A DNA stretch of 64,000 nt from Methanomicrobia archaeon JdFR-19 (GTDB lineage: Archaea; Halobacteriota; Methanosarcinia; DSM-18856; Methermicoccaceae). The stretch is taken from assembly GCA_002010075.1 (NCBI GenBank), contig MTMG01000013.1, positions 72,796 through 136,795 on the forward strand, written 5' to 3'. This document shows, in pieces, positions 31,573-53,630 of the stretch (position 1 is the first letter of the stretch; every line of letters begins with the position of its first letter). The notes under the pieces are model-generated. The model worked only from the letters and a program-made list of their open reading frames with translations, was not told the origin of the DNA and did no database searches. The position numbers and the translations under genes were made by a program.

Positions 31573-31585
31573 TGGGGTGATGTGA

Positions 31586-32416: not shown

Positions 32417-32429
32417 TTGAGGTGTCTGG

Positions 32430-32780: not shown

Positions 32781-32794
32781 GGGGATGGGATGAT

Positions 32795-33277: not shown

Positions 33278-33601
33278 ATGATGGAAAGACTGGAGAGCTG
33301 GGCAAAAACACTCATAAACAGATTCGGCACCCAGATGACTCTCCGAAGGGTGTCATCAATCTCCTACAACGAATATGACGAGGCTGAGTATACGTATGAT
33401 GAAACAGATGTGAGAGTGCTGGTGGGGGCAAAGAAGCGAACGTTTGTTCGGAAGGAGGATGGCCTTCATGAGGCTGTGTATGTGAAAGCGGTCTTGGAGA
33501 AAGATGTCGATGTGGGAAAGGGTGATAGATTGGGAGAATGGGTAGTTGAAAGTGTAGAGGAGCATTCCTGCTTCAAGACTCTGATTCTGGTGGCTGAATG
33601 A
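33278..33601 (+). CDS. Hypothetical protein (virus-like region)
   Basis: 107 aa ORF with no family recognised. Confidence 0.4.
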   Translation: MMERLESWAKTLINRFGTQMTLRRVSSISYNEYDEAEYTYDETDVRVLVGAKKRTFVRKEDGLHEAVYVKAVLEKDVDVGKGDRLGEWVVESVEEHSCFKTLILVAE

Positions 33602-33696
33602 GAAACTTTTATCGCAAAATATATTAAGAAATTTCTTGTTTTCAGTTAAAATTACACCGGATTGAAATTACAACCGGATTATGGAAAAGAAATAAA
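33602..33696. repeat. Intergenic region with the direct repeat ACCGGATT twice, 7 nt apart, flanked by AT-rich sequence
   Basis: ...acACCGGATTgaaattacaACCGGATTatgg..., upstream of the 33697 gene. It could be an operator-like repeat or an att remnant. Confidence 0.3.
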
Positions 33697-34506: not shown

Positions 34507-34510
34507 ATAA

Positions 34511-35077
34511 TCACACAATCGGCATTCTCACCATTACATCCTTCGAATTCCTTCTCATTACCACATACAAATCGAAGGCGTTATGGGTTGCATATCCCTC
34601 GGCTGTTATTCGGAGGGCAATTCTCTCGCCCTGCTCAACTCTCATGGCGGATATGTTTATCCAGTACGGAAATGCAACCGTGATGGAGCCACTTCCCCCA
34701 AAATCGAAGATGTGCTGATGGCATATGAATCCTCCCTCCACCTCCTCTGAACCATCATCCATGATCTTCACAATATCCACACTGGGTGTTATATAGGCAG
34801 TCCCATCACTTCCTGTGTTCTGACACATGAGAGTTATCCATCCACACACAACACCATCCACCACATAAACATCTGCAGGTGTGAAGGGATATAGTACATC
34901 CGCTGTTCCAACATCCCCCCAACTAGTCGGGATATGCCCCAATTCATCGTATTCCTCTATGTCAGCATATTCGTGTGTTGAGAGGGAAGTGAGAATGTGG
35001 TAATACAGAGAGCCACCCCACTCAAATGCGTCTTTGAACTTCACTCCTCTTAACTCGATAACGTTCCTGCTTATCAT
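34511..35077 (-). CDS. Hypothetical protein (virus-like region, minus-strand module)
   Basis: 188 aa with no family recognised. Confidence 0.45.
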   Translation of the reverse strand: MISRNVIELRGVKFKDAFEWGGSLYYHILTSLSTHEYADIEEYDELGHIPTSWGDVGTADVLYPFTPADVYVVDGVVCGWITLMCQNTGSDGTAYITPSVDIVKIMDDGSEEVEGGFICHQHIFDFGGSGSITVAFPYWINISAMRVEQGERIALRITAEGYATHNAFDLYVVMRRNSKDVMVRMPIV

Positions 35078-35081
35078 TAGC

Positions 35082-35435
35082 TCACCCCGTATTCACCGTA
35101 TACTCTCCCCACTTCTCCCGGCTCTGGTATTCAGCGACAGCTCTTGCGAGTGTCTCACCATCAAGGTTGATTGTGATGGGCTGCGGCTCGATTTTTATTG
35201 TTATGTTGTTGGACTCACCGTTTACGTTGGTTGGTTTTACCGAGGATTTTACTGGGAGGAATGTGATGGCAGGATAATCAGAAGTATCTGTGATTTTTAA
35301 GCCCGATAAAATCGGTTTTATTCTGTCCACTGTTTTCAGGATTTCCACGCTCTGATTTATACTGTGGTTTGTTGTGTGTTCTATGTTGTGTGCCATGATG
35401 TACCACACCTTCCTGATTTTATCTATGTTGATCAC
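35082..35435 (-). CDS. Hypothetical protein (virus-like region)
   Basis: 117 aa. GTG start that overlaps the upstream stop. Confidence 0.4.
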   Translation of the reverse strand: MINIDKIRKVWYIMAHNIEHTTNHSINQSVEILKTVDRIKPILSGLKITDTSDYPAITFLPVKSSVKPTNVNGESNNITIKIEPQPITINLDGETLARAVAEYQSREKWGEYTVNTG

Positions 35436-37024
35436 CTCTCCTCAACCCCCCTTCGGATACGTGGGTCCACATGAGCCTGGTTGACGATGTCTTCGAAGCC
35501 GTCTCCTCCTACGAGAAGGGGAACCATCACGAAATAATCGATGTTCACGTCGTAGTCGGTTGTGGATGTTGTTCTTATCACAATGGTGTCGTTCACATCA
35601 CCGTCATCAAATTGAACATCGAGATAATGATATCCCAAATCAGTGGATGGATTCACGGTCGAGGATGAGACTGTGGTGGCATCAGTGGTATTCTCCACAG
35701 ATATCACACACTCCGAACCCGTCTCACCGCTCAATCTGAATATGGCTTTCCATGTCCCTTTCTTCAAACTCGATAAGGTTCCCCAGTTCCACTGCCAGTA
35801 CTCCCCGTTATTGCGCAGAGAAATTCCCTGGGAATTCGAGTATGAGGGGTTGTCTGATATGAAACCGGTTGCTGTCCCACTACAACTCGTAGACTCTGCT
35901 TCGGTGAATAGGTCAGATGTGTTATAGGATTCTGGAACGAAGGCACCGAAGTAGCATGGAGAGTTCCACTGCCACACTGCTCGCCACTTTCCCTCAGTAG
36001 AGTTAGCCCACTGCAAAGAAGCCTCGCCCCCCCTCACAAATATCTGGATTTCGGAGGATGAGGGGTCAAAGAACGCAGCCCAGCTGGTGGTCTTGAAAGC
36101 CTCTGGCATGAGTTCAGCATCTTCCAAATACCCCTGTCCTCTGTACCCGAATCTGTGGTACGGATAAACGTGTTTTGCATAAGAGATGTAGGCGAGAGGC
36201 TTACCCCTCCACATCTTGATGGTTCTTACATTTCCAGATACCGTGATGTTGAGTTCTGCGTAATCTGGCGAAAATGATATGATTTCAGGCGAGGAGTACG
36301 CCCCCTCCAGATGGATGTCATGACTGAGTGATGTCCATGCACCATCATACACATATCCTGCAATGGTGTCTGAGGAAAGTGAACCAACCCCCAGTTTGTA
36401 TATCCCGTTCTCGATGGCTGGATTCCCTGAGAAGTTGTGGGAGGTTGAATAGACTCGGTCGGAACCGTCGAAGATTTTCACCTCCCCAACGTTCACCTCC
36501 TCTCCATCGAGTTCGTATCTGGCTGTCTGGGATTTCACCAGTGTGATTGTTCCGTCTGATGTGGTTCTTGTGATGGTTGGCTCGGTTCCGATGTATTTCG
36601 CACCCACGGGCAGTGGAATGTAACAGTAGTCGGTCGAATATCCCTCATCCGCAACCGGATAGGCTTTTAGAATCGTTCTGTACAGATGGGAGGGAAGGAA
36701 CATTCCCTTTATTCTCGATACGATGATATTTCCAGTCTCACGAAACTCGATATCTGAGACCGCCAGATACCCATCCCGGTTAGCATAACTAATTTTATTA
36801 TAGGAAGCGTCTCTCAAAACCGTCAGCAGGTCTTCCTTGTAATCCCGGGCAGTCTTCCCGCTGGTTGGATACAATATGGCTTCAAGCTCCACTTCCCTCA
36901 CATTGGAGGGAAACGATACCACCACTGGCTGGTTGAGACCCAGAGCTCTGAACTGAATGAGTTTCTGGGACTGGACTTCGTCGAACCGGGTGATTGCAGG
37001 TACGTATATCTCACCTATGTGCAT
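35432..37024 (-). CDS. Large structural protein, tail or tail-fibre-like candidate
   Basis: 530 aa, Ser/Thr/Gly/Tyr/Trp-rich and beta-rich in composition. It is the largest gene in the structural-looking array. Confidence 0.4.
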   Translation of the reverse strand: MHIGEIYVPAITRFDEVQSQKLIQFRALGLNQPVVVSFPSNVREVELEAILYPTSGKTARDYKEDLLTVLRDASYNKISYANRDGYLAVSDIEFRETGNIIVSRIKGMFLPSHLYRTILKAYPVADEGYSTDYCYIPLPVGAKYIGTEPTITRTTSDGTITLVKSQTARYELDGEEVNVGEVKIFDGSDRVYSTSHNFSGNPAIENGIYKLGVGSLSSDTIAGYVYDGAWTSLSHDIHLEGAYSSPEIISFSPDYAELNITVSGNVRTIKMWRGKPLAYISYAKHVYPYHRFGYRGQGYLEDAELMPEAFKTTSWAAFFDPSSSEIQIFVRGGEASLQWANSTEGKWRAVWQWNSPCYFGAFVPESYNTSDLFTEAESTSCSGTATGFISDNPSYSNSQGISLRNNGEYWQWNWGTLSSLKKGTWKAIFRLSGETGSECVISVENTTDATTVSSSTVNPSTDLGYHYLDVQFDDGDVNDTIVIRTTSTTDYDVNIDYFVMVPLLVGGDGFEDIVNQAHVDPRIRRGVEER

Positions 37025-37135
37025 TTCTCATCCTCTCCCTATTCATGATTTCGAGTATTCGTGTGATTCTCACGAAGTCCTCCTCAGCCATCTCGTCTAT
37101 TTCAGAAGGAGTCCATCCGAACTCACGCATGAGCA

Positions 37136-37576
37136 TCACTTCCGTGATTTCTTCTGATGGTTCTTTTCCTCGCAGAGCCCGTTTGATGTGCCTGACCCAT
37201 TCCTTTTCGTGGTATCGATATAACGAGACAAAAAATCCTCACAAGTCCCTCCAAGTGCACGCCTGCTGTTGTTGTAGTGGTACCAGAACTCTTCTTCATT
37301 CAGATTCTCGATTTCCTCTGGACTCATCCCGGTAGAGAGCATGATCGTGCCAGCATACATGAGTTCCTCCACCTCATCAGAAAAGTCGGCAAGTGCATCC
37401 CTGTCCTCTTCTACCTTCTCCTTTATTTTTTCTGGAAGTTCATCTGGGTTGATATTTCCGAAGTACTTCAGAATAATTCTTTTGTATAGTTTCCTGAGAA
37501 CTTTTACATCCTTATGAATGGGATTTCTTCTGTAATCCATACTCATACACCTCATGAGATATTTATCGATTTGCAA
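37136..37576 (-). CDS. Hypothetical protein (virus-like region)
   Basis: 146 aa, acidic helical N-terminal part and basic C-terminal tail. Confidence 0.35.
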   Translation of the reverse strand: MQIDKYLMRCMSMDYRRNPIHKDVKVLRKLYKRIILKYFGNINPDELPEKIKEKVEEDRDALADFSDEVEELMYAGTIMLSTGMSPEEIENLNEEEFWYHYNNSRRALGGTCEDFLSRYIDTTKRNGSGTSNGLCEEKNHQKKSRK

Positions 37577-38436
37577 GGCAGACTTTCCAATGTGGTCTCC
37601 ACCAAGTCATCTGGTGTGAAGTCCCCATCGAAATACGGGAAGGCAACTTCTTCCACACCTATCGTTTTATCACCAACGCTGGCAACCAGATCCCTCTTTG
37701 TGAGGCTCGTTATATCACTCAACATGTCCAGACTTGCGAAGTCCATTGTCAACCCCACCACTATATCCCGCTTGGTGGGAACGAGTCCGACTATTTTGGT
37801 GGATGTTGTTGCATCCACATCCTTCACGATTTTGAGTTCGTAGTCCACCCTGATGGAGAATTCTCTGACGTAGTCGCTGATTGCCTCACCCCCCAGCGTC
37901 AGAGACGTCAGGTCATCCCACTTCAGCACCGAGGTGTATGGGGAAGCGTGGCTTCCAGCCCCTATGTAATCCGTGTCCGAATATCCAGAGAAGTCTGCCC
38001 CCACCAGTGTGAAATCAAGGGATGCGACATCGTCTTCTCTGAATGTCAGAGTTGCACTCTTCACCACACAGCCTGCATACTTGCCGAAGTGTTTTGTGCC
38101 CCCGACATCCACGATATGTCCTATCGAGATCGATGGGAGGGAGTCGTCCGTACCAGATGCACTGCCCAGCACATGAGAAGCCCACCATGTCAGGTCGTTG
38201 GGCTTTATGCTCATCGCCAGCTCTATCTCCTGCCCTGTTTTCTCGACTGTCAGACTTTCGAGTGCCTCCTCACCATTCGCCCTCAGATATCTTACGTCCT
38301 GTGAAAGCGTTCGAATCGTGGGAGTAAACCGTTCGACAAGACCGAACCACTGCATCGTTGGGTCAGTTGGGAAGACGCCAAACGATGTCTCATCCACGTA
38401 TTCAACAGGCTGGTTTCCGATTATCATCTCATGCAC
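37552..38436 (-). CDS. Structural protein, major capsid or major tail candidate
   Basis: 294 aa. It sits directly after a coiled-coil scaffold-like gene, following the portal-scaffold-capsid order. Confidence 0.4.
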   Translation of the reverse strand: MHEMIIGNQPVEYVDETSFGVFPTDPTMQWFGLVERFTPTIRTLSQDVRYLRANGEEALESLTVEKTGQEIELAMSIKPNDLTWWASHVLGSASGTDDSLPSISIGHIVDVGGTKHFGKYAGCVVKSATLTFREDDVASLDFTLVGADFSGYSDTDYIGAGSHASPYTSVLKWDDLTSLTLGGEAISDYVREFSIRVDYELKIVKDVDATTSTKIVGLVPTKRDIVVGLTMDFASLDMLSDITSLTKRDLVASVGDKTIGVEEVAFPYFDGDFTPDDLVETTLESLPCKSINIS

Positions 38437-38731
38437 CTCCGTACTGGGTTATGAGTTCGTCAATTCTTTCGAGTTCTGACTGGATATTCTCGATTCTCTG
38501 CTGGATTACTGATGTTAGTTGAGACTTCGTCTCGTCCGATAACCTTGAATTGAGAATAAGGCTCTTTTCAGATTTCAGGTCGTCCAGATGATTCTGGAGA
38601 GTTTCCTTCTTCGTGTTCAGATACTCCAAAACATCCTTGGTACTCATCACCGTTTTGAGAAGGGACTCGAGCGATTGGGCATAATTTTTGAGATAATCTA
38701 ACTCAATTTTTATCATGTCAAGCTCCTCCAC
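38429..38731 (-). CDS. Coiled-coil protein (scaffold-like)
   Basis: 100 aa with heptad-rich sequence (LESLLKTV...LQNHLDDLKSEK...IENIQSELERIDELI). Confidence 0.4.
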   Translation of the reverse strand: MEELDMIKIELDYLKNYAQSLESLLKTVMSTKDVLEYLNTKKETLQNHLDDLKSEKSLILNSRLSDETKSQLTSVIQQRIENIQSELERIDELITQYGGA

Positions 38732-39127
38732 TCAAACACCTCCTTCAATAAAATGAACTTTGAATTCCACAATCCTGCAATTCGGACTTTTCTCCCTGTT
38801 TGATGTGTTGGCTATGGTGTAGCCAAGTTCTGCACTCAGAAGAAGTTGCACAACAGAATCCGCCAGTTCATCCCTCTGTTTCACAGTGTTTGACCAGACC
38901 TTCACCTTTACATGGGCAACGAACTCACTGAGAACAAGTCCATCCTCGAGGTCTCTGTAGTGTTTGGTGTTCACAATTTCCCCTTCAACCGTTATCATGG
39001 GATACATCGGTTCATGGGAATGGTATGCTGTGAAGATCCACGAGTCTCCAGCCACATTCGGGTCATTGGGATTCGTAAGATTCTCTCTCAGGTAATCCCT
39101 TACCGTGAGTACAACATCCTCCAACAT
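38732..39127 (-). CDS. Hypothetical protein (virus-like region)
   Basis: 131 aa. Its TGA stop abuts the GTG start of the scaffold-like gene. Confidence 0.4.
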   Translation of the reverse strand: MLEDVVLTVRDYLRENLTNPNDPNVAGDSWIFTAYHSHEPMYPMITVEGEIVNTKHYRDLEDGLVLSEFVAHVKVKVWSNTVKQRDELADSVVQLLLSAELGYTIANTSNREKSPNCRIVEFKVHFIEGGV

Positions 39128-39214
39128 CCTGAATGAGGTTGGAGGAGGGATAGAAAATGCTAAATCAGAAAAGTTGAGGGGAATAAAAAGAGAGGATATT
39201 GTGTTAGACTCGCA

Positions 39215-39493
39215 TCATCTTATCTCAAACCTTTTCCTATCAAGCAGTTCCTGTTTCTTTGCCTCGTTCCAGCCACTCACATCTTGGAGATATCCCGTTA
39301 TCCGAGAAATGGGCAGGACGTTGTGCGAACCACATTCCGGACAGTAGAACTCACCACATACCGGACAGACATGTATCCCAGAAATGGGTTTCATGCACGA
39401 ACCATGCTCGCGGGCATACTCCCTGACGGGGCAGTTGTCAGGCGTGTATTTAAACTCACTCTTGATAGCCTTCTCAATGACTTCTTGAAGCAT
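39215..39493 (-). CDS. Stand-alone NrdD-like C-terminal domain: zinc ribbon plus glycyl-radical motif
   Basis: CPVCGEFYCPECGSH ... SRITGYLQDVSGWNEAKKQELLDRKRF parallels the class III RNR C-terminus (CxxC...CxxC, RV(C/T)GY(L/S), WN.GK..E..DR) in only 92 aa. Confidence 0.6.
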   Translation of the reverse strand: MLQEVIEKAIKSEFKYTPDNCPVREYAREHGSCMKPISGIHVCPVCGEFYCPECGSHNVLPISRITGYLQDVSGWNEAKKQELLDRKRFEIR

Positions 39494-39534
39494 GAAAGTG
39501 AATTGACTCCAATTCTACTTAAATGTTAGGATGT

Positions 39535-40614
39535 TTAAATATTAAGAGGGTCGAATCTCATTTCCACCCCCTCATCGTATCCCCATGCTCTCATCTGTGG
39601 GATGAGGACATCTCTCTCGAACACTCTTTTGATTTGGCGTTGCATCGACATCAGAACGTTCAGTCTGTCTTTCTCTGAAACGTAGGAAGATGCGTAGGTT
39701 GAGCCTCTTGCCTTTCCGGTTGTAATCTCTGACTGGAGGAGAGCTATTGCGATGTCTCTTTCCAAGCTCTCCTTGAGTCCGAGAATGTCGGTTGCTCCTG
39801 TGGTTGGAGTCAAAGGCTTCACCTCGAATCCCACCCCCACAATGTCCTCGTTCTGTTCAAGCTTCTGCATCTCCTCTTTCACATCGTCCAGCACTTTCTT
39901 TATCTCCTCGAATCTTCCTTCGTGCAGAAGTGGTTCAAGAGCCTTCATATCGATGTGAAGCCTTCCCATTCCGTATCTTCTGACAGCTTTTGTGAATCCT
40001 TCGAGCAAATCGAGTTTGTACTTCACGATTCTGTCTATGGGGTCGAGGAGTGAGATACCATACAGACCAAGGGTAGTTCTTCCCATGATATCTGTGCATA
40101 CATTCCCCTCTGGAAAGAGGCGAAATAGTGCGAACTCGTCTCTGTTGAATACTGTGGGGACAGACTCCTCCTGAACAACCACTCTGTCCACCTTACCCTT
40201 CAGAACGTGTGTGGGAATCTCTTTCGGTCTCACTCCTTTGGGGAGGAGAGTGATGTACCTCATGGGGAGTGGAGTGAGTGAGGAAATAGTATCACCATCC
40301 CATTCGAGGTGGAGAACAACGGTTCCATCACGGGCAAGCAGTCTGGCAACTGTTGCAATCACGTGGTCGAGATTCACTCCCACAGCCCACTTTTCAAGCT
40401 CCTTCACACCACCACAGAACTCGAAGCCACTTGAGATTGTGAGACCCAGTTTCAGAAGTGAGGTTGCAACATAGGGGTCGATCTGGGAGAGCTGTTCGTA
40501 TCTGATGAAGCGGTTGGATGTGTCAAGGTAGAAGTTCCCCACTTTGTAGTCGTCCGGTGTGATTCTGGGTATTGCCGACAAAGAAGCCTGAATTCTTTTC
40601 TTTCTGAAGAACAT
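39535..40614 (-). CDS. Portal-like protein candidate (virus-like region)
   Basis: 359 aa. The evidence is weak: its size and its position at the head of a scaffold/capsid-like array. Confidence 0.35.
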   Translation of the reverse strand: MFFRKKRIQASLSAIPRITPDDYKVGNFYLDTSNRFIRYEQLSQIDPYVATSLLKLGLTISSGFEFCGGVKELEKWAVGVNLDHVIATVARLLARDGTVVLHLEWDGDTISSLTPLPMRYITLLPKGVRPKEIPTHVLKGKVDRVVVQEESVPTVFNRDEFALFRLFPEGNVCTDIMGRTTLGLYGISLLDPIDRIVKYKLDLLEGFTKAVRRYGMGRLHIDMKALEPLLHEGRFEEIKKVLDDVKEEMQKLEQNEDIVGVGFEVKPLTPTTGATDILGLKESLERDIAIALLQSEITTGKARGSTYASSYVSEKDRLNVLMSMQRQIKRVFERDVLIPQMRAWGYDEGVEMRFDPLNI

Positions 40615-43891: not shown

Positions 43892-44998
43892 ATGGAATTA
43901 TTGAGGACGATTGAAAACATCCCAATTATTAAGAATAACTACATTCTTTTACCGTTTGTGTTTCTGATGATTGTTCTGTCTGTTTTATATCCCCAAAACA
44001 TAAGAGATTACCATACTTTTGTGGATTGGAGAACACTCGCAGTTTTAACCGGTCTATTAGTCATTACAACCGCAATAAAAGAGAGTTTCTTCTTTCTCAA
44101 AATGATTAAAAAATTTTTCAAAAGAATAGATAACGAAAGAAAGTTAGCATTGACTCTGATTATACTTGCATCATTTTTATCCATGTTCTTAACAAACGAT
44201 ATTGCATTATTCATAGTACTCCCACTGACTCTGGCTTTTCAGATGTATCTGCAAAACAGCTTACAGAAGTTAATAGTCTTCGAGACCATATCGGTCAATG
44301 TCGGCTCAGCTCTTACTCCCATCGGTAACCCCCAAAATCTGTTTTTATGGCACCAATGGAACATCTCCTTTTTCAGTTTTGTGATGAACATGATGCCACT
44401 ATTTGTGATACTGTTCTTCACCCTCCTGATGTTCGGTTTGGTTGTGTTTCCCTCCAGAAAATTGTATTTCAGGATGCCAGAGAATGTGGTGGATTCAAAC
44501 GACAGATTATTCTACCTCTCGACCGTTCTTTTGTTGTTGTTTATTTTAGCTGTCGAATTTGCTTTTTCATACTATGCACTGCCAATTATCCTTTTGATTT
44601 ATGCAATATTTTTCAGAAATGTGTTGAGGAAGGTCAACTGGCTATTGATTGTGTTGGTTGGCATTATGTTCATAGACTTTCATATCATAAGTCAAATGCA
44701 CATCGTGTCTGATTTCATTAATCAATTTGACCTACACAACTCTGCAACAATCTTTGCACTGTCTCTGTTCTCATCCCAGATAATTAGTAATGTTCCTGCG
44801 AGTATCTTCATGTCAAAATTCACAGACAACTGGCTTGCGATAGCTTATGGTGTAAATGTGGGCGGAAATGGACTTTTTATTGGCTCTCTCGCGAATATAA
44901 TAGCTTTGAAATTCATCAACAACTGGTTAGAGTTCCACAAATATTCATTAGCTTACTTCATCCTTACAGGAAGTCTTGTGTATGTCGTCTTCAGATGA
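43892..44998 (+). CDS. ArsB/NhaD-superfamily anion permease
   Basis: 368 aa with the IGNPQNL signature. The gene is visibly AT-rich and has different codon usage from its neighbours. Confidence 0.7.
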   Translation: MELLRTIENIPIIKNNYILLPFVFLMIVLSVLYPQNIRDYHTFVDWRTLAVLTGLLVITTAIKESFFFLKMIKKFFKRIDNERKLALTLIILASFLSMFLTNDIALFIVLPLTLAFQMYLQNSLQKLIVFETISVNVGSALTPIGNPQNLFLWHQWNISFFSFVMNMMPLFVILFFTLLMFGLVVFPSRKLYFRMPENVVDSNDRLFYLSTVLLLLFILAVEFAFSYYALPIILLIYAIFFRNVLRKVNWLLIVLVGIMFIDFHIISQMHIVSDFINQFDLHNSATIFALSLFSSQIISNVPASIFMSKFTDNWLAIAYGVNVGGNGLFIGSLANIIALKFINNWLEFHKYSLAYFILTGSLVYVVFR

Positions 44999-46682
44999 AG
45001 ACCTCTCTGAACTTCGATATTCCTTCTTCTGTTCCAACAACAGCTATCCTGTCCCCTTCCTTCAGCACCTCATCGGGTTTTATGTCCAGAATCACATCCT
45101 CACCCCTCTTTATCCCGATGAGGGAACATCCAAACTTCCTTGGAAGCGAGAGACTTTCAAGGTCAAATTCTGTGAGCAGAGACTTTTCGGGAACTTCGAA
45201 GACCTCTACCACCAGCCCCTGAGCCATTGGCTCGGCTTTGTATTTTTTGTTGTATTTCTTGGCAATCTCTGATGTAATAACCTCAACACACATCACAGGA
45301 ATGGACACCACATAGCTCGAGCCAGCTTTGTGTATCTTGTCTATGTTCTCCCCATTGTTCTCCCTCGTTATTATGAAAGCCCTTGGGTTCATGTCTCTTA
45401 CGAGCAGTGTGGATAACGCACTTTCAGAATCATCTGGAAGGAGTATGAGAACCGTGAGATGACCGGGCTGATCTACGCCTGCCTCCTTCAGCACCTCCTC
45501 ATCGGTTGCAGAGCCGACTATGGTTGGGCATTCGAGACCAGATAGTGCGTGCGGGTTTGAATCAATGACAACCACCCCCACACCCGCATCCATCAATCGG
45601 CGGACAACCTCCTTCCCAACCTCTCCATGTCCGATTACGATGAATCTTCTCGGCGTGTGGGGGGCACCCATGCATTTGCACCTCTCTGTGCATATCGAGT
45701 CCTCGATTGTTCTGAGCTGTTCAGGTGTTCCGACCACCACAAGCACGCTGTTAGATGTGATCACGGTCTCGGGTGCGGGACTTGGTATAAGTTTTCCATC
45801 CTTCCACATCGCTATCACTCTTCCCCCCATCCTCTTTTCGTTCGAGTTCCACACTTCCATGATGGTCTTTCCGACCGCACCGCTCTCGGGATTCACGGGA
45901 AGTTCTGTGATATAGAGACCCTTGAAAAACTCGACCTCACCAACCGGCACGCCTTTCATGAGTTCGATGATTCTATGTGCCACGTGGTCCCCCACAAGCT
46001 TCTTCGGAACGACAACCATGTCCGCTCCCGCCATTTTTAGATGCTCCTCCTTAATCGTCCCCTCGGCAACCACGATGCCTGAACCGAGTTCGAGCAGTAC
46101 TGCAGTGTTCTGAACATCTGTGCCACACATGACCACTGTCTTTGCGCTTTCAACGTTTGCTCTTTTCAGTCCTTCGGACGAGGTGGGGTCCCCAACCACA
46201 CACGGAACACCTTTTTCAAAGAGGGAATGCACAACCTCAGCCCTTGGGTCAAGAACAAGGAACGGTATGTTGAGGGATTCCAGCTCTCCTATGAGCTTTT
46301 CAGCTATCTTTGAGTAATAACACACAACCACATGGTCTCTCAGAGTGGTGGATGTTGGGTGTTCGAACCTCCATGCGAGATATTTCCATATCGTGTTGGA
46401 TATGGGGATGAGGAGGCCAAACATCAGCACTATTCCACTCATGGAGACAATGATTGAGAGGGTTTTTCCAGCGGTTGTTGTCAAAACGACATCTGGAACC
46501 GCACGGGTTGCCATACTCACGATTACCCAGTGGAGTGCATCTGCAACTCCGTATTTCACACCCTCTATGTATCGGGTGATGAACAGGAAAAGGGCGGAGT
46601 AGGTGAATATGAGGGAGAATAGGGCAACAAAGTAGTAGAAGACATACCTGATTACATACCTCGGAAGCTTCATCCTTTCCAC
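44991..46682 (-). CDS. Potassium channel with two RCK (TrkA-N/TrkA-C) domains
   Basis: 563 aa with N-terminal TM/pore segment, then VVVCYY and FIVIGHGEVG Rossmann-type RCK domains. Confidence 0.8.
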   Translation of the reverse strand: MERMKLPRYVIRYVFYYFVALFSLIFTYSALFLFITRYIEGVKYGVADALHWVIVSMATRAVPDVVLTTTAGKTLSIIVSMSGIVLMFGLLIPISNTIWKYLAWRFEHPTSTTLRDHVVVCYYSKIAEKLIGELESLNIPFLVLDPRAEVVHSLFEKGVPCVVGDPTSSEGLKRANVESAKTVVMCGTDVQNTAVLLELGSGIVVAEGTIKEEHLKMAGADMVVVPKKLVGDHVAHRIIELMKGVPVGEVEFFKGLYITELPVNPESGAVGKTIMEVWNSNEKRMGGRVIAMWKDGKLIPSPAPETVITSNSVLVVVGTPEQLRTIEDSICTERCKCMGAPHTPRRFIVIGHGEVGKEVVRRLMDAGVGVVVIDSNPHALSGLECPTIVGSATDEEVLKEAGVDQPGHLTVLILLPDDSESALSTLLVRDMNPRAFIITRENNGENIDKIHKAGSSYVVSIPVMCVEVITSEIAKKYNKKYKAEPMAQGLVVEVFEVPEKSLLTEFDLESLSLPRKFGCSLIGIKRGEDVILDIKPDEVLKEGDRIAVVGTEEGISKFREVFI

Positions 46683-47246: not shown

Positions 47247-47588
47247 TTAGGCTTCGTACAGTTTTCCGTCTTTCTCGTACAGTCCGAGTTCAGACTTCAG
47301 AAAGTCAAGCACCTCGTACGAAAGAGAGAGTGTGATTCCAAGACATCTTCTCAGCATTCTCAGTGCAAACTCCTTATCCACACCGTTTTCCAGTTTCTCG
47401 GGGGTGAATAGTTCGAGGGCAACCCACCTCACATCGCGCATAAAATCTTCAAACTTCTGGGTGTTCATTATGTGGAGGTCAACCACCTCACCACAGAACT
47501 TCTCATCCTCTCTGTGGAACTCCAAGGTGGTCGTTGTATCGAACACGGTTTTTTCACCACAGTATGCGCATTCAACATGTGCCCTCAT
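47247..47588 (-). CDS. Hypothetical protein, partner of the upstream ribbon-helix-helix gene
   Basis: 113 aa with N-terminal CAYCGE...FCGE. Its start overlaps the RHH stop (ATGA). Confidence 0.4.
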   Translation of the reverse strand: MRAHVECAYCGEKTVFDTTTTLEFHREDEKFCGEVVDLHIMNTQKFEDFMRDVRWVALELFTPEKLENGVDKEFALRMLRRCLGITLSLSYEVLDFLKSELGLYEKDGKLYEA

Positions 47589-47760
47589 AGTTTTACCTCC
47601 CCCACTTTCTCCTTTCTGTCGTACCTGCTCACGAACTCGATAAGGGCATAGCTCACAACGTCCGAAAGCCCTGTAAAGCCCTCCCTCTCAGCAATCTCTT
47701 CAAGCCTTTTCTTGAGATAGGGAGACATCGAGACCGACACCACCATTTTCTTTGTCATAC
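47587..47760 (-). CDS. Ribbon-helix-helix (CopG/Arc-like) protein, 57 aa, not in the ORF track
   Basis: Frame MTKKMVVSVSMSPYLKKRLEEIAEREGFTGLSDVVSYALIEFVSRYDRKEKVGEVKL has beta-strand then two helices, typical of RHH. Confidence 0.5.
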
Positions 47761-47881
47761 AAATAAAAGATTATGATTATGATATTTATATGTTATTAAT
47801 TAGACTGATGGACAAGGTGCCTCTCTCAAAATTCCACCCACCCCATTAGCTTTAAATATTAATTAATAGTATCTTATTAAC
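47761..47881. promoter_or_regulatory. AT-rich divergent intergenic region (RHH operon on minus, TBP-like gene on plus)
   Basis: Multiple TATA/BRE-like A/T tracts (ttatgattatgatatttatatg, ctttaaatattaattaatag). The individual elements are not resolved. Confidence 0.3.
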
Positions 47882-48439
47882 ATGCTATTAACAATAGTGA
47901 ATGTTGTCTCTGCGGGATGGGTCGAGGGACTCGGAAATGCAGATGTGAAAGGAACAAAAAAGAAACACAGAATCGAGTACAGATACGGAAAATGCACACT
48001 TCATCTGTACTCATCAGGTGCGATCACATGCACTGGTGCGAAAACTGAAGAGGAGTCCATTGATACCCTCATGAGGGGAGGGTACTCACTCACGGGACAC
48101 AGGGTGAGAAACGCACGGGTTGTGAATGTGGTCGCGAAAGGACATCTTGGCGATGGTATCCATCTGTCCACCCTGTATGATGTGCTTTCTGAAAATGATT
48201 TCGATGTGAGATACGAGCCAGAGATGTTTTGTGCGGTTGTCATCAGGAACGAGTGGGCAACCTCCATCGTATTCGAGAGTGGAAGTTGTATGGTTATGGG
48301 AGCAAAATCTGTGGAGGATGTGTGGAGGGGGGTGGGAGAGTGGCTGGATATGGCGGGGGTGGACACAGGTAGAATTCCACCCTCGGACCCCCTCCCACTC
48401 AAAATTCCACACGATAAAGTAATGGTGGAGCTTCGTTAA
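47882..48439 (+). CDS. TATA-box-binding protein paralogue (divergent TBP-like, first repeat degenerate)
   Basis: TIVNVVSAG...GAITCTGAKTEEE and VVNVVAKGHLGDGIHL...RYEPEMF...GSCMVMGAKSVED follow the two-repeat TBP pattern. The first repeat lacks about 11 residues around the EYxPEQFPGL segment. Confidence 0.65.
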   Translation: MLLTIVNVVSAGWVEGLGNADVKGTKKKHRIEYRYGKCTLHLYSSGAITCTGAKTEEESIDTLMRGGYSLTGHRVRNARVVNVVAKGHLGDGIHLSTLYDVLSENDFDVRYEPEMFCAVVIRNEWATSIVFESGSCMVMGAKSVEDVWRGVGEWLDMAGVDTGRIPPSDPLPLKIPHDKVMVELR

Positions 48440-48574
48440 GGCTGAATTTCGTGTGAAATTTCGCATGAATTGTGTTGGGCGATAGTCCCACGAACCACGG
48501 TTAGCTCATACCATATCAAGAGCTATCGGGTAGGGTATCGCATACCTTACACTCTGGGGAGGTGGACAGTGGAC

Positions 48575-48910
48575 ATGGGTGGAAAGAATGAGAGAAAGAG
48601 CATAAAAGTGCCTGCAGAGGTGTATGCCCAGCTTGATACACTGAAAAGAAGGCATGGGCGCTCGTATGGGGATGTAATCAGAATGCTGGTCATGAAATAC
48701 GGGGAGGAAATAGACCCGAAGGTCATGGTGAACAGGGCACTGGACGAACTTGTCGAGCAATTGAAACCGACGGGCGTTTCCCTCATCGCCGAGAACATGA
48801 GACCAATTCTTATTAGGGCGGTGGACATGAGCGAGGAGGAGAGGACAGAGGTGGTTGAGGTGGTGATGGGTGCGTTTGTCAGATGGCTCAGGGAGAGGAA
48901 TGGAGAATGA
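48575..48910 (+). CDS. Hypothetical small protein (possible RHH-like N-terminus)
   Basis: Likely start MGGKNERKSIKVPAEVYAQLDTLKRRHG. The track ORF begins 35 codons earlier. Confidence 0.4.
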   Translation: MGGKNERKSIKVPAEVYAQLDTLKRRHGRSYGDVIRMLVMKYGEEIDPKVMVNRALDELVEQLKPTGVSLIAENMRPILIRAVDMSEEERTEVVEVVMGAFVRWLRERNGE

Positions 48911-48968: not shown

Positions 48969-49519
48969 ATGATGAGGCTAAAAAACAGAGCAGAGATGCT
49001 TAACAGATTGGCATCAGACCCGAAGAACAAGCCGGACGAAATCATAAGAAGGATGGGCTTGAAGGAGGGGCAGGTAATAGCAGATGTAGGCGCCGGAGGT
49101 GGTTATTTCTCAGTGAGATTTTCAGAGGTGGTGGGAGAGAAAGGCAGGGTTTATGCGGTCGATACGAATCCCAAGTTCTTGGAGCACATACAGATGATGG
49201 CAGGGAAGAACAACATCACCAATCTCATCACCGTCCTCGCAACCGAGGACAGATTCAGTCTGCCAGAAAAAGTGGATTTTGTGTTCATGCGCAATGTTAC
49301 ACACCACATCAAAAACAGAGTGGAGTATTTCAAGAGGTTGAGAGAGGTTCTGAAACCAAATGGAAGAGTTGTCATAATAGATTACGAGAAATCGTTATTC
49401 CGCAGAATTTTCGGGCATTATGTGCCTAAGAACACCATAATAATGGAGATGAGATAGGCGGGATACAGGTTGAATGAGGAGTTCGACATTCTACCAAAAC
49501 AGCACTTCACCGTCTACAC
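48969..49519 (+). CDS. Class I SAM-dependent methyltransferase, with an in-frame TAG at 49455..49457
   Basis: Motif I VIADVGAGGGYFS. After the TAG the frame continues AGYRLNEEFDILPKQHFTVYT to a TGA, which is the usual (e)aGF...v.....hf C-terminal strand of these methyltransferases. Confidence 0.75.
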
Positions 49520-49863
49520 TTGACATAGTTCTCTTTCTTACCGCACCTCAAACACTCTCTTTCCACATCCACCACATTAGAAGACGCGTATATGGTGTAT
49601 CTCTCCTTCCATTTGTGCAGTCCAAATTTGCATAGAATGCCCAACATCATGATAAACCATTATGATTAATGATATAAAAAAGAATTGGGGGTATCCCGAA
49701 GGACACCCAATCGTTTCACGCTTTCTTGATGAAGTTCTTGGCAAAGGTTCTCGCCTGATAGAGTGCAATCAAGCTCAGCACCCAAATCAGGATGAAAGCC
49801 ACGTAGTCAATGCCCGCAGCTCTCCACACACCTTCCAATCCAAAGCCCCACATTCATATCACC

Positions 49864-50187
49864 TCACAACATGCACACCTGCTGTGCGCGTTCTCTTCCG
49901 AAGTCCTCTATCTGGTACTTGTAGAGAACTGCGCCCTCTCCGAAGTAAGTCCCGTCATCCACTTTCTGCTCGACACTCGATGTGAGACCACCTGATGCGA
50001 GCTCTATCAGGAGCAGTTTAACCTGTGATTTCCAGTAGTCTCCACTGATTCCGTACTCTTTGCTTATGGTTTCCCAGAGCTCGTAGTCCCACATAGCACC
50101 TTTCTCATCGAGTAATTGAAGTACTCTGCATTTAATCGGCATTTCAGTTGGGTTTTTTGTTCTGGCAGCCATTTCACACCACCTCAC
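49864..50187 (-). CDS. Small winged-helix-like protein (PadR-like?)
   Basis: 107 aa. Weak resemblance to PadR-type wHTH. Confidence 0.35.
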   Translation of the reverse strand: MRWCEMAARTKNPTEMPIKCRVLQLLDEKGAMWDYELWETISKEYGISGDYWKSQVKLLLIELASGGLTSSVEQKVDDGTYFGEGAVLYKYQIEDFGRERAQQVCML

Positions 50188-51260
50188 ATCTCCCTCGTTG
50201 TTTCCTCAACGACAGCACCTTCCCAGTAGTACATTATGAACGTACCAATCACTGCGACTATGACACCCAAGATGAGCCACCAGGCTGGGACGCCACCGAG
50301 GAAGAGTATCACGAATATCACTGCGAGCGGTCCATAAAGGGCTGCGATTGCCTGTCCTCTGCCCACACCGATCAGTGGGAAGGACTTGTACCATGAAACA
50401 TAACAGAATGCGAATGTTATACCAGCTGCCACAAGCCAGACTTGGGCATCTGCATTAGCGGTCGCTGACAAGAGTGGATAGATATTCCATCCGAACAGTG
50501 CAGCTGTGAGTGGGCATATTATGATGATCCAGTAGAAGACCTCGCCCATGAAACGCACTGTTATCCCAATGTCTGGGTCTGAAACATCCAGCGCCCTAGC
50601 AGCGACTGCTCCCTCGATACCCCATCCGAGGAATGCCATTGCACCTCCGAGGTATCCGAGGAACAGCACTTCAGGAGCCGCCGGATTCTGCAGTTGCGCA
50701 ATCATGTCCAGCGGGTTGAATATCAGTATGCCACCGAGAATAATAAGGACTATACCGAGGTATGTTCTCGGAGAAATCCTCTCCTTATACCACAGTTTAG
50801 CAATAGTTGCACCAACAACAGGATACACAAGAGCTGCTGCTGCAGCAAAGGCACCACCGATAATACCCATTGCCATAAACGAACCAAATATAGCTATTGG
50901 ACCACCGCATATTGCTCCAAGCCAGAACCACTTCGAGATGTTTGTGAAGTTTCGCAGTGTCCTTATCAACTCACCAAACTTACCGAGCACACCAACCCAT
51001 ACCAGAAGGAAAATCAGAACCCACACAGCGTTGAACGTCGTTATTACGACAGCTGCAGCCAAGAACTCGCCCAGCGGGTCGGTTCCCGGAAAGAGTGGTG
51101 GAGCCCATTCTCCATATGGGGGGGCATACCATACGACTGTCCCTGGGATGTACCACAATCCCCAGAGAATTGCACACCATAATGCCCAAATAAAACCCCA
51201 TTTAACTTTTACTTTTTGTTCGGCTTTTATTGCTTCAGCCAAACTCGTTACAGCACCCAT
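50184..51260 (-). CDS. Polytopic membrane protein (DMT/EamA-like transporter candidate)
   Basis: 358 aa, about 10 TM helices, Trp/Gly-rich. Confidence 0.55.
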   Translation of the reverse strand: MGAVTSLAEAIKAEQKVKVKWGFIWALWCAILWGLWYIPGTVVWYAPPYGEWAPPLFPGTDPLGEFLAAAVVITTFNAVWVLIFLLVWVGVLGKFGELIRTLRNFTNISKWFWLGAICGGPIAIFGSFMAMGIIGGAFAAAAALVYPVVGATIAKLWYKERISPRTYLGIVLIILGGILIFNPLDMIAQLQNPAAPEVLFLGYLGGAMAFLGWGIEGAVAARALDVSDPDIGITVRFMGEVFYWIIIICPLTAALFGWNIYPLLSATANADAQVWLVAAGITFAFCYVSWYKSFPLIGVGRGQAIAALYGPLAVIFVILFLGGVPAWWLILGVIVAVIGTFIMYYWEGAVVEETTREM

Positions 51261-51312
51261 ATCATCACCTCATTACAAATTTTTGGGGAGAAAAAATGAA
51301 AAAAACTCCCCT

Positions 51313-51957
51313 TTACTCTGCACCTACAAGTTTCTTAGCAATTCTTACGGCGTCGAGAGCATTCTCGGCGTAAGCATCAGCACCAATCTTGTCAGCCCAT
51401 TCTTGGGTTATGGGAGCGCCTCCCACCATCACCTTGACCTTGTCCTTGATGCCAACCTTCTCAAGCTCCTCTACGACTGCACGCTGGTTGAGCATTGTTG
51501 TTGTCATGAGTGCGGATGCCCCTACGATGTCTGCGTTCAGTTCCTTTGCCTTGTTGGCGAACTCCACATTGGGGACATCCCTTCCGAGGTCATGAACATC
51601 GAACCCCGCAATGCTGAGCATGGTTGCGACGATGTCCTTACCGATCGTGTGAATGTCTCCCTCAACTGTTCCAATCAAGTACACTCCTATGGATTCTCCT
51701 GCCTTTGCTCCCTTCAGAACTGGCTCAACCACAGCAACAGCAGCCTTCATGGCTTCAGATGCTGCCATCACGTGAGGTAGGAAAACCTCGCCCTTGTCGA
51801 ACTTATCACCAATCTCACGCATAGCAGCGGTCATGCCCTCAATGAGTTCCACAGGGTCAACACCCGCATCGAGTGCTTCCTGTGCCGCCTTTACAGCCTC
51901 GTCTTTCTTGTAGTTTTTGATTGCATCCTGAACTTTCTGTATAAGCTCGCTTGACAT
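51313..51957 (-). CDS. mttC: Methylamine-specific corrinoid protein (B12-binding, MttC family)
   Basis: 214 aa with the cobalamin-binding DxHxxG motif (GDIHTIGKDIV) and the corrinoid-protein N-terminal helical cap. Confidence 0.85.
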   Translation of the reverse strand: MSSELIQKVQDAIKNYKKDEAVKAAQEALDAGVDPVELIEGMTAAMREIGDKFDKGEVFLPHVMAASEAMKAAVAVVEPVLKGAKAGESIGVYLIGTVEGDIHTIGKDIVATMLSIAGFDVHDLGRDVPNVEFANKAKELNADIVGASALMTTTMLNQRAVVEELEKVGIKDKVKVMVGGAPITQEWADKIGADAYAENALDAVRIAKKLVGAE

Positions 51958-51963
51958 TAAAAA

Positions 51964-53478
51964 TCACCTCCCTTCTAATGCCGCCTTATCGGCCCTCTTC
52001 ATAACCTCTTCCATGTCCTTCAGCACATCGCTGTCTATCGGAGCGACCTCATGCGTCTTGAGAATCTCATCGACCTTATCGCGTGCTGCCTGTGCAAGGT
52101 CCTTTCCGCCAAGGGACTGCCATGTCCCTCTCATGTTCCTGTCGATCAAGGTTGGGTTGGACTGAATGTTGATGAGGTCTCTTGTCTCATCCAGAGCCAA
52201 GAAGTCTCCGCCCGCTCCAACTGACTTGATGGAGTCTACAGCGAGTGTTGTCTCGTTCACTTCGATTCCCTCAACGACCATCCTTGCCATTCCAATGATA
52301 TCGTTGTCGATGACTATCTGCTCAGAGCTGACAGTCATACCAAGCTCGAGCATACCTGCTCCGTATATGCTGTTCGCACCTGCAAGTGCGGGTACGAGTG
52401 TTGTGATTGTCTTCTCATGACCTGCCTGTGCATCTGGGAGTTTGGAGTCGGTCTAAGTTCCAGCCACGTAGCTTGGCAAGTTGTAATACTGAGCCAGCTG
52501 TGCCACTGCTGCACTGATAAGTGCAAGCTCAGGCGAACCAACTGGTGCGGTTCCCTTTCTCAGGTCGAAAGCTGTTGTGGAGCTTCCATACCACACAGGA
52601 GCACCAGGGTTTGCAAGCTGGGACAGGACTATACCTGCCAAAACCTCAGCGTTGTGTGTCACGAGAGTGCCTGCAACATGCACCGGAGATGTCGCTCCTG
52701 CCATTGCCATGCTCAAAACGTTCACTGGCATCTCGTACTTTGCACCATATATTATGACCTTCACAGCGTTCTCGTGGAGTTGTAGTGGGCTTGTTGGACA
52801 GAGAAGCAACGAGAGTATTGGTCTCTTCCTTGCCAGCTCCTCATCTCCACCATAGAACGCCTTTACTACTTCCCAGTATGTGTCGATGCTGGTACCGACA
52901 GGGTCAATGTGCTGGAAGTGTTTGCTCGTACCCTTCAAGGATGCCATCAGTTCGTGTACGTCCTGCGCACCCTTGTCAGACCAGTCTCTTGCAGAGACCG
53001 TCAGGGAGAAGTAGTCAATGTTATCACACCAGTCTGTGACTATTGCGGTGTCGATGATGTCCTGCTCAACTGAGTCCCTGACAACCGGCTTGCCATCTTT
53101 GAATTCGAATACCTGTACACCGGTACCGAAGGTTGTCCAGTATACTTTGCCTCCTGCCTCCTGAATGAGGTCGTTCTCCTTGGTTCTGCCTGCCAGTAAG
53201 AATCTTGATGGGGCAGTCTGCAAAGCCTTCCTCACGACCCACTCAGGAATCTTCACCATCTGTGTCTCGTTGTCTACTTCACAGCCGTTTTCCTCGAACA
53301 CTTTTCTACCGAGTTCATCTGTGACGAGAACGCCTGTGTCTGTGAATACGTCCATGGTAGCTTGGTGTATCTCTCTTAATTCGCTCTTAGAGAAGAGTTT
53401 TAACCCAGCTCCATGAAGCTTCTCAACGCCTGCTTCTACATATTTTCTCATGTTTATCACGTAGGAAGTGTATGCCAT
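51964..53478 (-). CDS. mttB: Trimethylamine:corrinoid methyltransferase MttB, with in-frame TAG (pyrrolysine position) at 52453..52455
   Basis: Track ORFs 52453..53478 and 51964..52353 are in frame. The joined protein reads ...[55 protein letters not shown]... and is collinear with Methanosarcina MttB across about 500 aa. The TAG sits at the canonical Pyl site. Confidence 0.9.
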
Positions 53479-53630
53479 TACATCTAAATAAGTCTTACTA
53501 AAAAACCGAATAAATCAAAATAAATTGAATAAATTATAAAAAAATTTGAGTTTTGAACTGAAAATAGGACGCAGTCTTGTCACTTCATTTTCCACCATAC
53601 ATATATATTTCACAATGATAAATCAAAATC
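53479..53630. promoter_or_regulatory. AT-rich divergent promoter region upstream of mttBC (minus) and a membrane-protein gene (plus)
   Basis: About 150 nt of A/T tracts between divergent starts (aaataaattgaataaattataaaaaaattt). Confidence 0.3.

What the first reader, a model, noticed from the sequence alone, without database searches (positions are those of the whole stretch)
47882..48439. Divergent TBP paralogue with a degenerate first repeat
The protein follows the two-repeat TBP layout. The second repeat is well conserved (VVNVVAKG...RYEPEMF...SGSCMVMGAKSVED). The first repeat has lost about 11 residues spanning the EYxPEQFPGL DNA-contacting stirrup. It sits in an AT-rich region between small RHH proteins. 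It could be a specialised or decoy TBP, for example a regulator that binds TFB but not DNA. A canonical TBP presumably lies elsewhere in the genome.
Basis: partly seen in the sequence, partly recalled or inferred. Interest (0 to 1): 0.55.

Follow-up and report, generated by a model that had tools for sequence, protein, structure and literature searches.

The report
Lopsided TATA-binding protein paralogue
A small group of uncultured deep-sea methanogen-related archaea keeps a second, very divergent copy of the transcription factor TBP with half of its first DNA-gripping repeat cut away, which probably makes it an accessory or competing initiation factor, although its function has not been tested.

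The parts
47834..47881 (+). Conserved promoter segment upstream of the TBP-like gene. Homology to the relatives begins here.
   Evidence: blastn homology to L003 and L002 starts at window 47834-47836. The roughly 60 nt before the ATG are nearly identical in three loci, while sequence further upstream is unrelated.
47853..47860 (+). Candidate TATA box, TTTAAATA, 22-29 nt before the ATG. This spacing implies a leaderless or near-leaderless mRNA.
   Evidence: Read directly from the sequence. Seven of the eight bases are identical in all three loci; L002 has C for T at the last position, TTTAAATAC. The spacing argument is an inference from the usual archaeal TATA position near -26.
47882..48439 (+). 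TBP-like gene, 185 codons plus a TAA stop.
47882..48103 (+). Degenerate repeat 1 (residues 1-74): S1, loop, S3, S4, S5, H2. It has no H1 and no S2.
   Evidence: AlphaFold secondary structure; Pfam match to S4-S5-H2 only; spacing of 38 residues against a mode of 49; dN/dS 0.15-0.36.
47924..47968 (+). Replacement loop, residues 15-29 (EGLGNADVKGTKKKH). The first part is variable; the KGTKKKH part is invariant.
   Evidence: pLDDT about 63 for residues 21-30; orthologue alignment; canonical Y/P/F/G columns replaced by V/G/K/R.
48104..48355 (+). Complete repeat 2 (residues 75-158): S1', H1', S2', S3', S4', S5', H2'.
   Evidence: dN/dS 0.04-0.12.
48212..48229 (+). C-terminal stirrup motif YEPEMF (residues 111-116). 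In canonical TBPs this is the TFB/TFIIB-docking site and carries one intercalating Phe.
   Evidence: Columns are 84-96% conserved in canonical TBPs and are retained here. The role of the motif comes from established knowledge of TBP-TFIIB/TFB complexes. The usual P-G after the Phe is C-A here.
48356..48436 (+). C-terminal tail, Pro-rich (residues 159-185), not conserved and predicted disordered.
   Evidence: pLDDT 33-55; dN/dS above 1 or unalignable; homology to L002/L014 stops at 48351.
48499..48574 (+). Stretch conserved at the nucleotide level just upstream of the RHH start. It contains the palindrome GTAGGGTATCGCATACCTTAC (48530-48550), a candidate operator.
   Evidence: Almost invariant in three loci, although coding dS is 0.2-0.6. 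Homology to L002/L014 resumes at 48499. The hairpin appears in the fold. No Rfam family matches. It occurs only once in the window.
48575..48910 (+). Orphan RHH (CopG-like) protein, 111 aa. It follows the TBP-like gene in all four loci.
   Evidence: Pfam RHH_1 E=1.4e-5. Present downstream in L003, L014 and the start of L002. Only two homologue clusters exist in 5.8 billion proteins. dN/dS 0.11.
48969..49523 (+). Class I SAM-dependent methyltransferase, 184 codons, with an in-frame TAG at 49455-49457. It is the third member of the conserved gene trio.
   Evidence: Pfam Methyltransf_31/11/25. The read-through sequence is homologous to L003, which has CAG (Gln) at that codon. Also present in L014.
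47585..47758 (-). Divergently transcribed small RHH-like protein (57 aa). This neighbour is specific to the window.
   Evidence: Pfam RHH_1 E=0.007, below cutoff. In the Guaymas relatives a BsaWI-like restriction endonuclease gene sits in its place.
47247..47588 (-). 113-aa Cys-containing protein whose start overlaps the RHH57 stop by 4 nt. No family match.

Best explanation
This is an expressed gene kept under purifying selection that encodes an asymmetric member of the TBP family. It is confined to one genus-level lineage of Methermicoccaceae-related archaea (the JdFR-19/B74_G9 group). Its C-terminal half is a complete TBP repeat with both DNA-intercalating phenylalanines and the YEPExF stirrup that docks TFB. 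Its N-terminal half keeps S1, S3-S5 and H2 but has lost helix H1 and strand S2. The distal Phe pair is gone (one deleted, one changed to Tyr), and a conserved lysine-rich loop sits where the stirrup was. The most likely mode of action is as an accessory initiation factor working beside an ordinary TBP. It would dock TFB through the intact C-terminal stirrup and hold the BRE-proximal half of a TATA element with the C-terminal repeat. It could not impose the second, downstream kink, and the basic loop would make only electrostatic contact there. The expected result is either promoter-class-selective initiation or competition with the housekeeping TBP for TFB and promoters. Shown here: family membership, fold, the deletion, selection, the conserved promoter, lineage restriction and the conserved gene trio. 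Inferred: presence of a canonical TBP elsewhere, TFB binding, partial DNA binding, and any regulatory outcome.
Against: Paralogue status is therefore inferred. No binding or expression data exist. The P-G that follows the stirrup Phe in 80-88% of TBPs is C-A here, and the two SGK lysines are Ala and Ser, so the TFB and DNA contacts of repeat 2 may also be altered. The model's repeat-1 loop has only moderate confidence (about 63), and the model leans on an alignment made of canonical TBPs. The constant RHH and methyltransferase neighbours hint at a role that may not be general transcription.
Confidence: 0.45

Rival explanations
1. Pure decoy. The protein no longer binds DNA at all. It titrates TFB through the intact C-terminal stirrup, or heterodimerises with canonical TBP, and so acts as a global or conditional inhibitor of initiation.
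For: The YEPExF stirrup is intact, while one Phe pair and the N-terminal stirrup are lost. TFS4 provides a precedent for an inhibitory paralogue of a general transcription factor (PMC5715097).
Against: The central DNA-face residues of both repeats are kept and under purifying selection (N7, V9, R34, T51, N82, V84, F116, R122, F131). An invariant lysine-rich loop replaces the stirrup. Neither would be needed by a protein that never touches nucleic acid.
Confidence: 0.17
2. A role outside transcription initiation, as part of a three-gene module. The TBP fold would serve as a nucleic-acid- or protein-binding module working with the orphan RHH and the SAM methyltransferase, for example in a toxin-antitoxin-like, defence or modification system.
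For: The TBP-like, RHH, methyltransferase order is conserved in the three loci that extend that far, and the fourth, shorter contig shows the RHH start. Both the TBP-like protein and the RHH are orphans of the same lineage. A nucleotide-conserved palindrome precedes the RHH gene. The flanks are variable and include a restriction enzyme in the relatives. TBP-like domains occur in non-transcription proteins such as RNase HIII, DNA glycosylases and RnlA (PMC3597702; PMC8266594).
Against: No PADLOC or PHROG match exists for the TBP-like protein or the RHH. The methyltransferase's 'mad2' match covers only the generic SAM-binding domain. The genes are separated by 135 and 58 nt and the TBP-like gene has its own promoter. 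The protein matches true TBPs, not the distant TBP-domain families.
Confidence: 0.2
3. This is the genome's only, and therefore housekeeping, TBP.
For: No other TBP lies in the 64-kb window, and none could be retrieved for this genome.
Against: It is about 25-30% identical to canonical TBPs, whereas related orders keep at least about 68% identity. It falls far below every NCBIfam TBP cutoff. Structural elements are missing. The window covers only a small part of a genome, so absence from it says little.
Confidence: 0.03
4. A decaying duplicate, that is, a pseudogene in progress.
For: There is a large deletion, the tail is not conserved, and sequence divergence is extreme.
Against: The reading frame is intact in four loci from two ocean sites. 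dN/dS is 0.12-0.27 over the fold. The promoter is conserved.
Confidence: 0.02

Closest known systems
Canonical archaeal TBP (e.g. Pyrococcus woesei 1PCZ/1AIS, Methanocaldococcus jannaschii 2Z8U, Methanosarcina mazei TBP = P0154)
   Different: Repeat 1 lacks H1 and S2 and is 11 residues shorter. One Phe pair is lost. Identity is 25-30%. It fails all NCBIfam TBP cutoffs. It has a Pro-rich, non-conserved tail instead of a short acidic end.
Extra TBPs of Methanosarcina (TBP2, TBP3) and of Halobacterium (TbpB-F)
   Same: Additional TBP genes beside a main one in Euryarchaeota, thought to tune transcription (PMC5501381).
   Different: Those paralogues are full-length and symmetric. The two M. acetivorans paralogues in the hit list are 72% and 85% identical to the M. 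mazei TBP used as query. This protein is structurally truncated and far more divergent.
Monopartite TBP-domain proteins (halobacterial TbpA; 82-136-aa proteins of Thermococcales)
   Same: Archaeal TBP-family proteins that depart from the two-complete-repeat rule and have unknown function (PMC3597702).
   Different: Those have a single domain. This protein keeps a full repeat plus about two thirds of another in one chain, which is an intermediate architecture not described there.
Truncated or neofunctionalised paralogues of other archaeal general factors (Sulfolobus TFB3, TFS4)
   Same: They offer a functional analogy. A general-factor paralogue that has lost a nucleic-acid-binding or catalytic element acts as a co-activator (TFB3 lacks the HTH; PMC6101594) or as an inhibitor (TFS4; PMC5715097).
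   Different: They belong to different protein families, so this is an analogy only, and nothing about it was tested here.
Eukaryotic TBP-related factor TRF2/TLF
   Same: A TBP paralogue with altered DNA-contact residues that serves TATA-less promoters (PMC4180970; details from general knowledge).
   Different: TRF2 keeps both complete repeats and has lost its Phe residues in both halves. Here the change is a deletion confined to one half, and the origin is independent.

Membership tests
TBP family (Pfam PF00352 domain; TBP fold) | Significant profile match to the TBP domain in both halves of the protein | tested here: met
   Whole protein E=5.9e-20 with 2 matched stretches. Residues 1-75 alone give E=9.4e-6 and 25.8 bits, above the 22.9 cutoff. 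Residues 76-160 alone give E=2.6e-13.
TBP family (Pfam PF00352 domain; TBP fold) | Saddle-shaped TBP fold | tested here: met
Canonical archaeal TATA-box-binding protein (NCBIfam PRK00394 models) | Full-length score above the curated cutoff of a TBP equivalog or subfamily model | tested here: not met
   Best score 47.5 bits against a cutoff of 181; other models give 27-47 bits against cutoffs of 255-347. As a control, M. mazei TBP scores 379 bits against a cutoff of 307.
Canonical archaeal TATA-box-binding protein (NCBIfam PRK00394 models) | Two complete S1-H1-S2-S3-S4-S5-H2 repeats forming a ten-stranded sheet | tested here: not met
   Repeat 1 has no H1 and no S2 in the model. It is 11 residues shorter than the mode and shorter than every other TBP compared.
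Canonical archaeal TATA-box-binding protein (NCBIfam PRK00394 models) | Two pairs of DNA-intercalating Phe, one in S2 and one in S4 of each repeat | tested here: not met
   Repeat 2 keeps F116 and F131. In repeat 1 the S2 Phe column holds Lys within the replaced segment and the S4 Phe is Tyr43. The role of these positions comes from established knowledge (yeast F99, F116, F190, F207).
Canonical archaeal TATA-box-binding protein (NCBIfam PRK00394 models) | C-terminal stirrup able to dock TFB | tested here: inconclusive
   The Y-E-P-E-x-F motif is retained, but the following P-G is C-A. Actual binding cannot be tested with these tools.
Canonical archaeal TATA-box-binding protein (NCBIfam PRK00394 models) | Binds and bends TATA DNA and supports RNAP recruitment | not testable with these tools
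   This needs EMSA, FRET and in vitro transcription.
Lineage-specific extra TBPs of Methanosarcina type | Full-length protein closely similar to the organism's main TBP | tested here: not met
   About 30% identity to M. mazei TBP over 124 residues. The two M. acetivorans paralogues in the hit list are 72% and 85% identical to it. The organism's own main TBP was not available.
Monopartite TBP-domain proteins (PMC3597702) | A single TBP domain of about 82-136 aa | tested here: not met
   This protein has 185 aa with two recognisable repeats.
Type II toxin-antitoxin or defence module with an RHH antitoxin | A recognised toxin or defence family next to an RHH antitoxin, with tightly coupled genes | tested here: not met
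   No PADLOC hit for the TBP-like protein or the RHH and no PHROG hit for the TBP-like protein. The gap between the two genes is 135 nt. The RHH gives only a sub-threshold VAPB_antitox match, 22.1 bits against a cutoff of 27.9.

The most novel reading that the evidence does not exclude
The lopsided TBP could be the effector of a small self-contained module made of the TBP-like protein, the orphan RHH and possibly the methyltransferase. In this reading it is a dominant-negative initiation factor that shuts down transcription, host or viral, by capturing TFB or occupying half-TATA sites. The co-evolving RHH protein would hold it in check or control its expression through the conserved palindrome. 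That would amount to a toxin-antitoxin-like or defence-like system built from a general transcription factor.
Probability: 0.08. Interest if true: 0.8.

Novelty: new variant of a known kind. Interest (0 to 1): 0.45.

Why it matters
TBP is among the most conserved proteins of archaea and eukaryotes, and its two-fold pseudo-symmetry is usually treated as inviolable. A natural TBP that has lost helix H1 and the stirrup strand of one half, yet has remained under purifying selection, is a ready-made experiment. It could show what each half of the saddle contributes to DNA bending, TFB recruitment and orientation of the initiation complex. It would also add TBP to the short list of archaeal general factors (TFB3, TFS4) whose truncated paralogues became regulators. 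The protein is small and comes from a thermophile-related lineage, so it should be easy to test in existing archaeal in vitro transcription systems. On the limiting side, it is known from only four loci in uncultured organisms, and its biological role may be narrow.

Tried and rejected
(1) Finding the canonical TBP of the same genome. tblastn of TBPs against the window found only this gene. A search with M. mazei TBP returned 7103 hits but listed only the best 120, none traceable to this organism. Two candidates with a similar source signature (P0271, P0203) came from other samples. The question remains unresolved.
(2) Single-sequence AlphaFold was useless (pLDDT 37), so the alignment-based model was used instead.
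(3) A viral or plasmid origin found no support: no relatives in IMG/VR, in GenBank phages or in PLSDB plasmids, and no PHROG match. BFVD structural hits are only giant-virus TBPs at 9-17% identity.
(4) The afdb50 fold library was unavailable.
(5) A search for more distant orthologues with the same deletion found none. The top representative hits are a scatter of unrelated divergent TBPs, including an insect one; the shortest repeat 1 among them has a spacing of 41.
(6) An RNA element in the intergenic regions: no Rfam hit near threshold, and folding z = -1.5, which is unremarkable.
(7) An upstream extension of the ORF through TAG read-through is excluded by a TAA directly before the TAG.
(8) 'Foreign AT-rich island' is rejected because the gene's GC and GC3 resemble those of its neighbours.
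(9) Reichlen et al. 2010 on the Methanosarcina TBPs is not held in the library.

Full report
WHAT IS THERE. The + strand carries an ATG..TAA ORF at 47882..48439 encoding 185 aa. Pfam recognises the TBP domain at E=5.9e-20 with two matched stretches, the best covering residues 79-151. Each half is also significant when scanned alone. Residues 1-75 give E=9.4e-6 (25.8 bits, cutoff 22.9), but only the S4-S5-H2 part of the profile is matched. Residues 76-160 give E=2.6e-13 and cover almost the whole profile. The best sequence matches among solved structures are archaeal TBPs (P. woesei, S. acidocaldarius, M. jannaschii) at E about 1e-10 to 1e-11. Repeat 2 of the query aligns equally well to either repeat of P. 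woesei TBP.

WHICH RESIDUES SURVIVE. I checked the columns that are at least 70% conserved in canonical TBPs. Repeat 2 keeps N82, V84, L95, Y111-E112-P113-E114, F116, F131, G134 and G140. It replaces the P-G after the stirrup Phe with C-A, and the SGK Lys with Ser. Repeat 1 keeps N7, V9, G46, G52 and K54. The Y, P, F and G columns of the S2/stirrup segment are occupied by V, G, K and R within the replaced loop. The S4 Phe is Tyr43 and the SGK Lys is Ala. Established knowledge of TBP-DNA and TBP-TFIIB/TFB structures helps interpret this: in yeast numbering N69/V71/F99/F116/T124 and N159/V161/F190/F207/T215 face the DNA, and E186/E188/L189 in the C-terminal stirrup bind TFIIB. On that basis the C-terminal half keeps a nearly complete DNA-kinking and TFB-docking apparatus. 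The N-terminal half keeps only the central minor-groove residues and has lost the distal Phe pair.

IT IS A LIVE GENE. Four orthologous loci were found. They are the window itself; L003 = QMVI01000028 of 'Methanosarcinales archaeon B74_G9' from Guaymas (87-88% identity over the whole protein, 93% over the fold), which NCBI annotates as 'hypothetical protein' RLG22292.1; L002 from the same Guaymas metagenome (80%); and L014 from ENA ERZ27227322, which holds only a C-terminal fragment. Nei-Gojobori dN/dS over the fold (codons 1-158) is 0.12-0.27 in all six pairs. By region it is 0.15-0.36 for repeat 1 and 0.04-0.12 for repeat 2. These values resemble those of the neighbouring RHH (0.11) and methyltransferase (0.26). 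Variation in repeat 1 is concentrated in residues 11-23 of the loop, while GTKKKHRIEYRYG is invariant. The C-terminal tail is unconstrained, and in L002/L014 it is replaced altogether: DNA homology stops at window 48351 and resumes at 48499. Upstream, homology to the relatives begins at 47834-47836. The conserved stretch contains TTTAAATA at 47853-47860, 22-29 nt before the ATG. That position fits an archaeal TATA box driving a leaderless mRNA (inference).

HOW WIDESPREAD IT IS. An exhaustive phmmer scan of 1.84 billion cluster representatives found only the protein's own cluster below E=1e-30. The next hit is at 8e-13 and 36% identity. The nearest hits are an unrelated scatter of divergent TBPs, and none shares the deletion. 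There are no relatives in IMG/VR, GenBank phages, PLSDB plasmids or PHROGs.

ORGANISM AND GENETIC CODE. The identical gene lies on a contig assembled from SRR3723048, which is Juan de Fuca Ridge crustal fluid (PMC6474303). Its closest relative is MAG B74_G9, which a 2024 preprint appears to treat together with JdFR-19 (it lists B74G9 beside the JDFR19 PylRS constructs). That preprint assigns JdFR-19 to the Methermicoccaceae and reports that it reads all TAG codons as pyrrolysine (10.1101/2024.09.30.615893). The window supports this reading directly. The methyltransferase gene downstream has an in-frame TAG at 49455, where B74_G9 has CAG, and homologous coding sequence continues to a TGA at 49521-49523. 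Assigning the window to JdFR-19 itself is an inference. The recoding does not affect the TBP-like ORF.

CONTEXT. The rest of the window is ordinary chromosome: GMP synthase, archaeosine TGT, TrkAH, tRNA synthetases, SAH hydrolase, GatB, transporters and MttB/corrinoid genes. The gene's GC (49.1%) and GC3 are typical of the window. Only the 123-bp upstream spacer is AT-rich, at 26.8% GC. Downstream, the order TBP-like, RHH (111 aa), SAM methyltransferase is conserved in the three loci that extend that far, and the fourth contig ends in the RHH start. The RHH is itself an orphan with only two homologue clusters. About 75 nt of almost invariant DNA precede it, containing the palindrome GTAGGGTATCGCATACCTTAC. 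Upstream the neighbours differ. The window has a divergent RHH-like gene plus a 113-aa Cys-containing protein, whereas the Guaymas genomes have a BsaWI-like restriction endonuclease. Further downstream the window carries a 3.8-kb segment (49825-53595) that B74_G9 lacks. The trio is thus a conserved unit within variable flanks.

INTERPRETATION. The protein belongs to the TBP domain family but fails the tests for a canonical TBP. Its NCBIfam scores are 27-47 bits against cutoffs of 181-347, whereas M. mazei TBP scores 379. One repeat is incomplete and one Phe pair is missing. It is also unlike the known extra TBPs of Methanosarcina, which are full-length (the two M. acetivorans paralogues listed are 72% and 85% identical to M. 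mazei TBP), and unlike the monopartite TBP-domain proteins of Thermococcales and haloarchaea (PMC3597702). My preferred reading (0.45) is an accessory initiation factor. It would dock TFB through the intact C-terminal stirrup and grip the BRE-proximal half of a TATA element, but it could not make the second kink, and the conserved basic loop would supply electrostatic contact instead. The outcome would be promoter-selective initiation or competition with the housekeeping TBP. Truncated paralogues of other archaeal general factors, TFB3 and TFS4, set a precedent. A module role with the RHH and methyltransferase outside general transcription gets 0.20. Sole TBP gets 0.03 and pseudogene 0.02.

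LIMITS. No canonical TBP from this genome was retrieved. The structural model is guided by canonical TBP sequences. No interaction or expression data exist.

Noticed in passing
window 49455-49457 (within 48969-49523, + strand): The SAM methyltransferase has an in-frame TAG. B74_G9 has CAG (Gln) at that codon, and homologous coding sequence continues for 21 more codons to a TGA. This is local evidence that the organism reads TAG as a sense codon (pyrrolysine, 'code 34' of bioRxiv 10.1101/2024.09.30.615893). Table-11 ORF lists therefore split genes in this window.
   Followed up: partly
window 51964-53478 (- strand): An MttB-family methyltransferase is called as two ORFs (129 + 341 aa), presumably joined by a TAG (Pyl) codon. 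A corrinoid protein (51313-51957) and an EamA transporter lie next to it.
   Followed up: no
window ~30585-40614: A cluster of phage-like structural genes sits amid chromosomal genes: minor capsid/cement protein, HK97-type capsid (Phage_capsid_4/Linocin_M18), tail tube (Phage_tube_2) and a weak Mu-type portal. The same arrangement occurs on a JGI contig (3300037583). It could be a provirus remnant, a tailocin or a gene-transfer-agent-like element of a methanogen-related archaeon.
   Followed up: no
window 47825-47837 and 48398-48410: The exact 13-nt direct repeat CTCAAAATTCCAC occurs only twice in the 64-kb window, 573 nt apart (0 of 100 shuffles gave 2 matches). The first copy sits at the upstream synteny breakpoint (homology to the relatives starts at 47834). 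The second sits in the non-conserved 3' tail of the TBP-like gene. It may be a recombination scar, but it is unexplained.
   Followed up: partly
window 48499-48574: About 75 nt before the RHH start are almost invariant in three loci, although synonymous sites nearby have diverged (dS 0.2-0.6). The stretch contains a 9-bp-stem palindrome, GTAGGGTATCGCATACCTTAC (48530-48550). It has no Rfam match. It may be an operator or a leader element.
   Followed up: partly
window 47247-47758 (- strand) versus L002 195-743 / L003 1-157: The gene upstream of the TBP-like promoter differs between genomes. The window has an RHH-like 57-aa gene overlapping a 113-aa Cys-containing orphan by 4 nt, a toxin-antitoxin-like layout. 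Both Guaymas relatives have a BsaWI-like restriction endonuclease there. This suggests a hot spot for gene exchange.
   Followed up: partly
window 49825-53595: This 3.8-kb segment holds a 107-aa orphan, an EamA transporter, a corrinoid protein and MttB. It is absent from the otherwise collinear B74_G9 contig, where L003 2250/2252 joins window 49824 to 53596.
   Followed up: partly
window 44001-45000: There is a sharp GC dip (36.9% against about 47%) over the CitMHS-family transporter gene at 43892-44998. It may be a recently acquired gene.
   Followed up: no
window 49507-49650 (- strand): A 47-aa Cys-rich ORF gives weak matches to the prophage protein family DUF1660 (E=0.002, below the Pfam cutoff) and to several PHROGs of unknown function.
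   Followed up: no
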